A DNA stretch of 64,000 nt from Trypanosoma brucei (taxonomy: Eukaryota), in the NCBI GenBank assembly GCA_000002445.1, contig CP000071.1, forward strand, positions 1,856,001-1,920,000. Direction: 5' to 3'. Positions 38,218-39,327 of the stretch are shown here, piece after piece. The translations under genes were made by a program, and so were the position numbers. Positions within the stretch are counted from its first letter, which is position 1, and every line of letters begins with the position of its first letter. The notes under the pieces were generated by a model. That model was not told the origin of the DNA. It saw only the letters and a list, made by a program, of their open reading frames with translations, and did no database searches.

Positions 38218-38907
38218 ATGGTAAACAAACATGGCTTTGTGCGAGCTGATGCCCTCCGGAGGATCAAGTACGGCGATGCAACACCTGCAGTGGACATCCC
38301 CCCGGAGCCCCCTCCAGTGGTGGCGATCGTTCCTCTACCATCGAGCACACGAGTCCCGATGAGACCGCAGGTGCTTCATTGTACCCTCTGTGCCTCCAAA
38401 TTCGCAGTGCCAGGCCGACTATTACACCACCTTCAAATAATACATGGCATAGGCAGCAGTAGTTGCCGCGTGAAAAGGGGGCGGGAGAACGAGGACTCAG
38501 TGCAAGGAGATGGTAGCGCCCCAGCAGCGCCAGCCCCTCAGGAAACACGGAAGCTGCCGTTTCAATGTGACCTATGCGAGGCGAGCTTCGGTACACGCTC
38601 TTCCCTGTCACTACACAAGAAATTCAAACATAAGAGCATAGTGACGGAGGACGGTACCGTAATGGTAGTGCAATTCCCTCGTAAGCGTCCCCGTGAGGGA
38701 AACGTTGACGTCCCGGGGAAAGGCGAGGTGCAGTGTGGTGTGTGCCAAAAAGTGCTCAGTTGCAGGGACTCCCTCATCCGACACTGTAAGGCTTTCCACA
38801 AAGGTGAGGGAGTCGAGCTTAAATGCAGCAAAAGCACAAAATTGTGTGCCACTGATTCCCCGCATACAAACACATCCATGTTGGTGTGCCCGACATGCGG
38901 AAGGTAG
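38218..38907 (+). CDS. C2H2 zinc-finger protein with 3 intact fingers. The reading frame ends at TAG 38905-38907, inside a fourth finger.
   Basis: The fingers CTLC-x12-H-x4-H, CDLC-x12-H-x4-H and CGVC-x12-H-x4-H are followed by CPTC-GR-TAG. Confidence 0.6.
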   Translation: MVNKHGFVRADALRRIKYGDATPAVDIPPEPPPVVAIVPLPSSTRVPMRPQVLHCTLCASKFAVPGRLLHHLQIIHGIGSSSCRVKRGRENEDSVQGDGSAPAAPAPQETRKLPFQCDLCEASFGTRSSLSLHKKFKHKSIVTEDGTVMVVQFPRKRPREGNVDVPGKGEVQCGVCQKVLSCRDSLIRHCKAFHKGEGVELKCSKSTKLCATDSPHTNTSMLVCPTCGR

Positions 38908-39327
38908 TGTGCTAGCAAAACCAGCCTCACCCTACATCAAAAGAAGATGCACGGTATGAAGGTAGAGCGCGCTGTTACCAGCCAACGCGGCGACTGCGAA
39001 GAAACGTCGCTGCACTTGATGAGCTGTCCCGGTTTGAAGGAGTTACGTGTCAGGTTTGCGGTAGAAGGTGTGTGTGTGCAGGATATATGCTTCTCCAAAA
39101 GGCTGGCGCAATTTCTCATTGCGGTTGGACGGAGCCGGCCACAGGTGAAGTCCTCCCCCAATGTATCAGTCATACAACCCACTCTCCCTTCTGCAACTTT
39201 CCTCCTTATTGCCGAGTGTGGAGCTAGCAGGAAAAGCACAGGACGCAGGAATAGTCCAGACACCCTCAGAGACAGAGGGGGTATGCTGTCAACAAGCAAC
39301 ATAAACAGAAAGAGGGGGAGAGAATAA
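38218..39327 (+). pseudogene. Full-length C2H2 zinc-finger reading frame (~369 codons) interrupted by a single in-frame TAG. Possible pseudogene, nonsense allele or readthrough.
   Basis: ORFs 38218..38907 and 38947..39327 share a frame. Across the TAG the sequence reads CPTCGR*CASKTSLTLHQKKMH, which reproduces the C-x2-C-x12-H-x4-H spacing exactly. Confidence 0.45.

What the first reader, a model, noticed from the sequence alone, without database searches (positions are those of the whole stretch)
38878..38952. In-frame TAG inside a perfectly spaced fourth C2H2 zinc finger
The zinc-finger gene has three fingers with identical C-x2-C-x12-H-x4-H spacing. A fourth finger reads CPTC-GR-[TAG]-CASKTSLTL-H-QKKM-H. 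It has exactly the same spacing, but the third linker residue is the stop codon at 38905-38907. The frame then stays open for another 140 codons (to 39327) in the same frame. A single substitution (for example AAG, CAG, GAG or TAC to TAG) would explain it. Possibilities are sequencing or assembly error, a nonsense allele in a heterozygous diploid, recent pseudogenisation, or stop-codon readthrough.
Basis: seen in the sequence. Interest (0 to 1): 0.75.

Follow-up and report, generated by a model that had tools for sequence, protein, structure and literature searches.

The report
Nonsense mutation in dead retrotransposon fragment
The "zinc-finger gene" is the leftover tail end of an ingi/L1Tc-type jumping gene in a Trypanosoma brucei chromosome, and its in-frame TAG is an ordinary CAG-to-TAG mutation seen only in this genome copy, so the finding is real but unremarkable.

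Summary
Four C-x2-C-x12-H-x4-H motifs lie in one frame at 38380-38952. The fourth carries TAG at 38905-38907, and the frame stays open to TAA TAA at 39325-39330.

It is not a host zinc-finger gene. It is the 3' 1.27 kb (about 38192-39455, + strand) of an ingi/L1Tc-clade non-LTR retrotransposon. Full-length relatives encode endonuclease, reverse transcriptase, RNase H, a C2H2 finger array and an "ET..H....CP" tail.

The fragment starts inside a finger, so the apparent start codon (MVNKH) is the end of that truncated finger. It sits after a tRNA cluster at a convergent strand-switch region of what is most likely T. brucei TREU927 chromosome 8.

The stop aligns with Gln. The codon is CAG in the orthologous loci of T. 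b. equiperdum IVM-t1 and T. b. gambiense DAL972, and in a 95%-identical paralogue 1 Mb away. It is Gln in T. theileri relatives.

Each genome carries its own lesions: TAG here, a 1-bp deletion and a lost zinc-binding His in IVM-t1, and two 1-bp deletions in DAL972. The substitution pattern fits near-neutral decay.

Readthrough is not supported. A reference error or a heterozygous allele cannot be excluded without reads. Interest is low.

The parts
38192..39455 (+). 3' terminal fragment (about 1.27 kb) of an ingi/L1Tc-clade non-LTR retrotransposon: a dead copy of the DIRE type
   Evidence: Similarity to a paralogous copy on the same chromosome in IVM-t1 (L008, 94.7% identity) spans window 38194-39459 and stops at both ends. 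Similarity to the DAL972 element starts at the same 5' point. Protein homology to the T. theileri, T. grayi, T. cruzi and T. congolense 'Tbingi protein' family is shown.
38194..38232 (+). C-terminal half of a truncated finger F0 (CRSSAATHMVNKH). Its internal Met (38218-38220) is the apparent start codon of the 229-aa ORF.
   Evidence: The finger is intact as CTECDATYQCRSSAVTHMVNKH in DAL972 (L006) and in the paralogue P0204/L008, and as CTECGSQYSCRNTAVLHMVNKH in T. theileri.
38380..38445 (+). C2H2 finger F1 (CTLCASKFAVPGRLLHHLQIIH)
   Evidence: It aligns with the family finger C(S/N)MCKRTFPLQNGLTRHLRYMH.
38566..38631 (+). C2H2 finger F3 (CDLCEASFGTRSSLSLHKKFKH)
   Evidence: It aligns with CEFCLRDFGNIGGLACHKKFKH. 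The T. theileri finger F2 has no counterpart in any of the T. brucei copies read here.
38734..38799 (+). C2H2 finger F4 (CGVCQKVLSCRDSLIRHCKAFH)
   Evidence: It aligns with CGVCQKFYAHLDSLVIHCRKFH. The last His is Gln in IVM-t1.
38887..38952 (+). C2H2 finger F5 (CPTCGR*CASKTSLTLHQKKMH): the finger in the finding
   Evidence: It aligns with CPTCGRQC / CPTCGHQCMSKSGLTLHRMSRH / CPTCSRQCMSKSGLTLHRVSRH in T. theileri.
38905..38907 (+). In-frame TAG, derived from CAG (Gln) by a C-to-T transition and private to this genome copy
   Evidence: The codon is CAG in IVM-t1 (L001), DAL972 (L006) and the paralogue L008. It is Gln in P0002, P0006 and P0021.
38995..39048 (+). Tail motif CEETSLHLMSCPGLKELR: the second half of the cysteine/histidine motif that ends non-LTR retrotransposon ORFs
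   Evidence: It is conserved as CEETALHLLSCPxLHPLR in T. theileri and T. melophagium. Full-length relatives have ETPYHVVFECPALAHLR, ETMLHVVCVCPALQRLR and ETLAHLVHSCP.
39325..39330 (+). Natural stop of the element's ORF (TAA TAA)
   Evidence: T. theileri ORFs P0021 and P0024 and T. melophagium P0016 end at about the same alignment position. The stop is the same in DAL972 and in the paralogue.
39331..39455 (+). 3' untranslated end of the element, ending ...GCTACGACAAAAAATTATAGA
   Evidence: Similarity to the paralogue L008 continues through here and ends at about 39455-39459. The T. equiperdum OVI contig L005 breaks at 39408, inside this stretch.

Best explanation
Window 38192-39455 (+) is the dead 3' end of an ingi/L1Tc-clade non-LTR retrotransposon. 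It lies in a T. brucei chromosome, most likely TREU927 chromosome 8, just downstream of a tRNA cluster at the end of the + strand transcription unit.

In an active element this part of the single long ORF follows RNase H. It encodes an array of C-x2-C-x12-H-x4-H fingers and a short Cys/His tail. In L1Tc this module is a nucleic-acid-binding chaperone used in retrotransposition.

The copy here lacks everything upstream of the middle of finger F0, so it cannot encode a functional element protein. The 229-codon 'gene' starts at a Met that happens to lie inside that truncated finger.

The TAG at 38905 is a C-to-T change of an ancestral CAG (Gln) in the third residue after the second Cys of the last finger. 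It arose, or is recorded, only in this genome copy. It is one of about 25 private substitutions that this copy has collected while drifting without selection.

Shown: the homology, the boundaries, the ancestral codon, and the independent lesions in other strains.

Inferred: that the fragment is non-functional and untranslated, and that the TAG is a real mutation rather than a reference error.
For: Homology:
- The only protein hit of the read-through translation is 'Tbingi protein' of T. theileri.
- That protein belongs to a multi-copy family of ORF fragments in T. theileri and T. melophagium. The family is also present in T. grayi, T. cruzi and T. congolense.
- P0021 aligns at 48% identity over 143 residues straight across the TAG, E = 4.5e-34.

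Architecture:
- P0020 and the DAL972 ORF link RNase H, 'CRWC' and the fingers.
- The full-length relative P0060 has Exo_endo_phos, RVT_1, RNase_H and C2H2.
- Reviews describe CX2CX12HX3-5H motifs at the L1Tc 3' end (PMC5814959). Reviews also describe DIREs and their concentration at strand-switch regions (PMC5814959 and PMC3820030).

Dispersed repeat:
- A paralogue 1 Mb away, next to a VSG gene, is 94.7% identical over exactly 38194-39459.
- Another relative lies on a different chromosome (P0205).

Ancestral codon:
- It is CAG in IVM-t1, DAL972 and the paralogue, and Gln in T. theileri.

Decay:
- Private substitutions number 25 here, 20 in IVM-t1 and 31 in DAL972.
- Each copy has different disabling lesions: TAG here; a 1-bp deletion plus His-to-Gln in IVM-t1; two 1-bp deletions in DAL972.
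- The paralogue has its own stop and a frameshift.
- Window-to-IVM-t1 divergence is 3.8% in the fragment, against 1.8% in flanking non-coding DNA and 0.3-0.9% in neighbouring CDSs.
- A neutral simulation with the observed transition bias expects 13.1 +/- 3 synonymous changes and 1.16 new stops per 46 substitutions. Observed: 15 synonymous codon differences (17.5 by path counting) and 1 new stop.

Annotation:
- The flanking genes are consecutive GenBank proteins AAZ13420 and AAZ13421, so no CDS is annotated here.
Against: - A majority-rule ancestor of the three orthologous copies has the whole 369-codon frame open.
- Synonymous changes are mildly over-represented: 28 of 70 polarised codon changes against about 20 expected. 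A plain Nei-Gojobori omega is 0.47, 95% CI 0.27-0.92. This could mean weak constraint. It is equally expected if paralogous copies exchange sequence, and the method ignores transition bias.
- The IVM-t1 1-bp deletion lies in a C homopolymer. That assembly aligns to the window with 111 gap openings in 21.5 kb, so the deletion may be an assembly error.
- DAL972 shows an open RT-RNase H ORF directly upstream of the fragment, next to a 100-N gap. The 5' truncation is therefore either not shared by all strains or that assembly is chimeric.
- No reads, RNA or ribosome data were available.
- I could not decide whether the family is Tbingi proper or one of the TbDIRE subfamilies.
Confidence: 0.9

Rival explanations
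1. Reference sequencing or assembly error, or one allele of a heterozygous site: the true base at 38905 in this strain is C (CAG), at least on one homologue.
For: T at 38905 is private to the window. Both orthologous loci and the paralogue have C. The element is a repeat, which is where assemblies go wrong: the OVI contig breaks inside it and DAL972 has a gap next to it.
Against: The same 1.1 kb holds 24 other window-private substitutions, so a private change needs no special explanation. Neutral drift at this divergence predicts about one new stop. In any case it would not change what the locus is.
Confidence: 0.07
2. A domesticated host zinc-finger gene derived from the retrotransposon tail, functional in the T. 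brucei ancestor and recently knocked out, or segregating as a null allele, in this strain.
For: The reconstructed ancestor has an open 369-codon frame, and there is a mild excess of synonymous changes. The fragment lies in sense orientation at the end of a transcription unit.
Against: - Every copy examined has its own disabling lesion, including loss of a zinc-binding His.
- Even the non-synonymous divergence (0.033) exceeds the flanking non-coding divergence (0.018).
- The ORF starts inside a truncated finger.
- A 95%-identical paralogue sits in a VSG subtelomere, so the open frame reflects recent transposition rather than host conservation.
- No CDS is annotated here in the reference.
Confidence: 0.03
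3. Programmed stop-codon readthrough or a reassigned TAG gives a full-length four-finger protein.
For: Only the open frame downstream and the perfect finger spacing.
Against: - The stop is not conserved in any other copy or relative.
- TAG ends 3 of 19 large neighbouring ORFs.
- The context TAG-TGT-GCT matches no readthrough motif I know of (own knowledge).
- The downstream conservation is fully explained by descent from the element's ORF.
Confidence: 0.01

Closest known systems
DIRE (degenerate ingi/L1Tc-related elements) of trypanosomatids, and truncated copies of Tbingi
   Same: It derives from the ingi-clade ORF and has lost coding capacity through truncation and a stop. It sits at a strand-switch region, where these elements are concentrated (PMC5814959, PMC1868937 and PMC3820030). 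Decay is independent in each strain.
   Different: Published DIREs are described as about 5 kb long, with many frameshifts. This copy is a 1.27 kb 3' fragment with a single stop, and it is 95% identical to a copy that still has a 967-codon open frame. It therefore looks young.
C2-L1Tc, the C-terminal nucleic-acid chaperone domain of T. cruzi L1Tc
   Same: It occupies the same position, after RNase H at the end of the single ORF. It has the same CX2CX12HX3-5H finger type (PMC5814959).
   Different: L1Tc is described with two fingers. The T. brucei copies read here have five (F0, F1, F3, F4, F5) and the T. theileri family six. No direct alignment with the L1Tc sequence was made here. Chaperone activity is inferred, not tested.
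zf-RVT / CCHC motif at the C-terminus of non-LTR retrotransposon ORF2 (own knowledge of Pfam PF13966 and of I, R1 and jockey-type elements)
   Same: The pattern 'LTREEETALARFRTG...CRWC' ... 'CEETxLHLxSCPxLxxLR' matches the usual C-x2-C ... ET..H....CP arrangement.
   Different: Here the C2H2 finger array lies between the two halves of the motif. Pfam did not report zf-RVT for the window translation at E up to 10.

Membership tests
ingi/L1Tc-clade non-LTR retrotransposon (fragment of) | Coding sequence homologous to the single long ORF that carries AP endonuclease, reverse transcriptase and RNase H | tested here: met
   The window fragment is continuous with an RT-RNase H ORF in DAL972 and in the paralogue P0204. 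The profile search reaches 1500-1800-aa proteins. P0060 has Exo_endo_phos, RVT_1, RNase_H and C2H2.
ingi/L1Tc-clade non-LTR retrotransposon (fragment of) | CX2CX12HX3-5H zinc-finger motifs at the 3' end of the ORF | tested here: met
   Four complete motifs and one half motif. The motif definition is from PMC5814959.
ingi/L1Tc-clade non-LTR retrotransposon (fragment of) | Dispersed multi-copy sequence, with similarity ending at the element boundaries | tested here: met
   Paralogue L008 is 94.7% identical over 38194-39459 only, about 1 Mb away on the same chromosome of IVM-t1. P0205 lies on another chromosome, and the P0204 cluster has 60 member sequences.
ingi/L1Tc-clade non-LTR retrotransposon (fragment of) | 3' poly(A) tail and target-site duplication | tested here: inconclusive
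   The element ends ...GACAAAAAATTATAGA, with only a 6-A run. No flanking direct repeat was found. A TSD cannot be expected if the 5' part was lost by deletion.
ingi/L1Tc-clade non-LTR retrotransposon (fragment of) | 77-79-nt 5' hallmark (Pr77 / HDV-like ribozyme) | not tested
   The 5' part of the element is absent from the window, and no reference sequence of the hallmark was at hand. Rfam at gathering threshold reports only tRNAs in the window.
[quoted passage not shown] | ingi/L1Tc-related sequence whose coding capacity is disabled by mutations | tested here: met
   It is truncated inside finger F0 and has a TAG at 38905. Orthologous copies carry frameshifts.
[quoted passage not shown] | Long element of about 5 kb | tested here: not met
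   Only 1.27 kb is present in the window, and there is no RT or RNase H similarity upstream. DAL972 may hold a longer copy.
Host C2H2 zinc-finger protein gene | Intact ORF kept across strains under purifying selection | tested here: not met
   Each of the four copies has a different disabling lesion. Divergence is above that of flanking non-coding DNA. The synonymous count is within the neutral expectation (P about 0.13-0.31), although Nei-Gojobori omega is 0.47.
Programmed stop-codon readthrough | Stop codon and downstream frame conserved together in orthologues | tested here: not met
   The downstream frame is conserved but the stop is not: the codon is CAG/Gln everywhere else.

The most novel reading that the evidence does not exclude
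The retrotransposon tail (fingers plus Cys/His motif) was captured as a small host nucleic-acid-binding protein, expressed from the end of the transcription unit in the T. brucei ancestor. It now segregates as independent null alleles (TAG here, indels elsewhere). The open ancestral frame and the mild excess of synonymous change do not exclude this.
Probability: 0.03. Interest if true: 0.4.

Novelty: already known. Interest (0 to 1): 0.08.

Why it matters
It matters mainly as a clean negative. An apparent 'interrupted zinc-finger gene with possible readthrough' turns out to be a decaying retrotransposon fragment of a well-described kind.

It is useful for annotation: mark 38192-39455 as an ingi-related pseudogene rather than a CDS.

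It is also a small worked example of strain-private lesions in a young dead copy. Nothing here opens a new question about translation or zinc-finger biology.

Tried and rejected
- **Exact look-ups.** Look-ups of the 229-aa ORF and of the 126-aa downstream ORF in the assembly collection found nothing. Two neighbouring ORFs also gave no contig, and a third failed because the ORF listing gave it an upstream GTG start.
- I used an alignment of the two window pieces with family members instead.
- **Withdrawn reading of upstream stops.** I first read TGA 38179-38181 and TAG 38191-38193 as stops inside a decayed upstream finger, and took tblastn extensions to 38092 as element sequence. The junction alignments with DAL972 and the paralogue show that homology starts at about 38192 and that these stops lie in unrelated flank. 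That reading is withdrawn.
- **RT/RNase H remnants.** A search in 35200-38300 and in 39300-42800 gave only noise.
- **Target-site duplication.** None was found.
- **Pfam on the downstream 139 aa.** Nothing significant.
- **Nei-Gojobori dN/dS.** It gave 0.47 with P = 0.02. I do not take this as evidence of selection. The method ignores the 2:1 transition bias, a bias-aware simulation is not significant, and dN itself exceeds the flanking non-coding divergence.
- **Literature.** Look-ups of the assembly accessions and of Bringaud et al. 2009, PMC2756862, failed. The ingi subclade could therefore not be assigned.

Full report
**1. The observation**

Three motifs with C-x2-C-x12-H-x4-H spacing lie at 38380-38445, 38566-38631 and 38734-38799. 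A fourth lies at 38887-38952. Its third residue after the second Cys is TAG (38905-38907). After the TAG, 139 sense codons follow before TAA TAA (39325-39330).

A six-frame scan of all 64 kb for this spacing, with stops allowed, finds these four hits and nothing else. Shuffled sequence gives 0.1 hits. Pfam recognises C2H2 fingers, including one across the stop.

**2. Where the window comes from**

Large ORFs run on the + strand up to about 39.3 kb and on the - strand from about 42.7 kb. This is the convergent meeting of two polycistronic units typical of trypanosomatids. Five tRNA genes lie at 35988-36674.

Five window proteins are identical to T. brucei brucei TREU927 entries AAZ13414, AAZ13417, AAZ13420, AAZ13421 and AAZ13422, on a contig of 2,481,190 bp. 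The same sequences also occur in T. equiperdum. DNA of T. equiperdum OVI differs from the window by about 1%. The window is therefore most likely TREU927 chromosome 8.

The SpoU methylase (34102-35223) and the amastin-like gene (42759-43433) are consecutive GenBank proteins. No CDS is annotated over the finger ORF in that record. This is an inference from the numbering.

**3. What the ORF is**

The read-through translation has a single database relative, a T. theileri protein named 'Tbingi protein'. Searching with that protein returns about 20 short ORF fragments from many T. theileri contigs and one from T. melophagium. That is the signature of a dispersed, decaying repeat.

Their alignment (A1) reconstructs the following order:
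- the end of RNase H;
- 'LTREEETALARFRTG...CRWC';
- six C2H2 fingers;
- a tail 'CEETALHLLSCPxLHPLR...LCFSKRLAxFLIAVERN';
- the stop.

The window matches from the second half of the first finger to the stop. P0021 is 48% identical over 143 residues straight across the TAG (E = 4.5e-34). The tail after the TAG is the best conserved part, at 52-57% identity.

An exhaustive profile search finds the same module in T. grayi, T. cruzi ('Tbingi protein') and T. congolense. It also finds 1500-1800-residue proteins on contigs of about 5.2-5.5 kb. One of these, P0060, has endonuclease, reverse transcriptase, RNase H and C2H2 domains in Pfam.

This is the architecture described for L1Tc and ingi. Their 3' end carries CX2CX12HX3-5H motifs and acts as a nucleic-acid chaperone (PMC5814959).

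**4. Boundaries and copies in T. brucei**

Three other T. brucei-group copies could be read.
- **IVM-t1 orthologue.** The orthologous locus of T. b. equiperdum IVM-t1 (L001) is colinear with the window.
- **DAL972 orthologue.** The orthologous locus of T. b. gambiense DAL972 (L006) is colinear from the amastin side up to window 38194. It then continues into an open 711-codon RT-RNase H-'CRWC'-finger ORF, which ends at a 100-N gap.
- **Paralogue.** That ORF is 96% identical to a 967-residue 'reverse transcriptase' of IVM-t1 (P0204). P0204 lies about 1 Mb away on the same chromosome, next to a VSG gene (L008).

L008 matches the window at 94.7% identity over 38194-39459 and nowhere else. The flanks diverge right after ...ACAAAAAATTATAGA.

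The element fragment in the window therefore runs from about 38192 to about 39455. It begins in the middle of finger F0, which is intact as CTECDATYQCRSSAVTHMVNKH in DAL972 and in L008. The Met of 'MVNKH' is thus the apparent start codon. Upstream sequence is unrelated. My earlier reading of TGA 38179 and TAG 38191 as stops in a decayed finger was wrong.

I could not decide whether DAL972 really holds a longer copy at this locus or whether its contig is chimeric.

**5. The TAG**

The codon is CAG in IVM-t1, in DAL972 and in the paralogue. The aligned residue is Gln in T. theileri: CPTCGRQC, CPTCGHQC and CPTCSRQC. TAG is therefore a derived C-to-T transition private to the window.

**6. Is the frame under selection?**

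*Divergence.* Between the window and IVM-t1, the fragment differs at 3.8% of sites. Flanking non-coding DNA differs at 1.8% and neighbouring CDSs at 0.3-0.9%.

*Lineage-private changes.* Polarised with DAL972, the three orthologues carry 25, 20 and 31 private substitutions. Each has its own lesions.
- The window has the TAG.
- IVM-t1 has a 1-bp deletion in a C run, which may be an assembly error, plus His-to-Gln at a zinc ligand and a 6-bp insertion.
- DAL972 has two 1-bp deletions.
- The paralogue has a stop just before F4 and a 1-bp deletion.

*Neutral expectation.* A simulation with the observed transition bias expects 13.1 +/- 3 synonymous changes and 1.16 new stops per 46 substitutions. 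Observed are 15 synonymous codon differences (17.5 by path counting) and 1 new stop.

*A mild excess of synonymous change.* Plain Nei-Gojobori omega is 0.47 (CI 0.27-0.92). Over all three lineages, 28 of 70 codon changes are synonymous against about 20 expected. I regard this as unexplained. It most likely comes from sequence exchange with paralogous copies, which would also explain the raised divergence.

**7. Rival readings**

- **Readthrough or reassignment.** The stop is not conserved, and TAG terminates 3 of 19 neighbouring ORFs.
- **A domesticated host gene.** This is contradicted by the independent lesions, the truncated first finger and the subtelomeric paralogue.
- **Reference error or heterozygous site.** This cannot be excluded without reads, and it would not change what the locus is.

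**8. Comparison with what is known**

Dead ingi/L1Tc-related copies (DIREs and truncated ingi) are well described and are concentrated at strand-switch regions (PMC5814959, PMC1868937 and PMC3820030).

This copy meets the homology, motif and dispersed-repeat criteria. It lacks the 5' hallmark region because it is truncated. It is shorter and younger-looking than the published 5-kb DIREs. I could not assign it to a subfamily (Tbingi or TbDIRE).

**Verdict.** It is an already known kind of feature and of low interest.

Noticed in passing
window 35988-36674: The tRNA cluster is Ile(+), Leu(-), Gln(-), Gln(+), Ile(+). The IVM-t1 assembly matches both Ile copies with one stretch and lacks the roughly 530-bp Leu/Gln/Gln block between them. 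This is either a deletion between the direct Ile repeats or a collapsed assembly.
   Followed up: partly
window 38192-39330 versus flanks: The retroelement fragment diverges about twice as fast between strains as the flanking non-coding DNA (3.8% against 1.8%). It also shows a mild excess of synonymous changes. This would fit gene conversion from paralogous copies, which was not tested.
   Followed up: partly
L006 15244-17222 (T. b. gambiense DAL972, FN554971.1): At the orthologous locus, the DAL972 assembly continues from the fragment into an open 711-codon RT-RNase H ORF that ends at a 100-N gap. TREU927 and IVM-t1 have unrelated sequence there. This is either a structural polymorphism or a chimeric contig.
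   Followed up: partly
P0060, P0053, P0065; L006 about 15140-15500; window 38995-39048: In full-length relatives, the C2H2 fingers lie between 'CRWC' and 'ET..H....CP.L..LR'. That is, they sit between the two halves of the Cys/His motif that usually closes non-LTR retrotransposon ORFs.
   Followed up: no
L008 8362-9628 (IVM-t1 chromosome 8, about 2.17 Mb, next to a VSG gene): A paralogous copy with a 967-codon open RT-RNase H-finger frame carries its own in-frame stop just before finger F4 (GKGEV*CDVCQK) and a 1-bp deletion near the ORF end.
   Followed up: yes
L005 (T. equiperdum OVI contig CZPT02000376.1), end at window 39408: This short-read contig stops inside the 3' untranslated end of the element, as expected where an assembler meets a repeat.
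   Followed up: no
window 39500-42700, and 20000-24000: These are low-GC stretches (31-37%). The first is the convergent strand-switch region between the two transcription units. The second lies inside the + strand unit. No large ORFs are present and neither was examined further.
   Followed up: no
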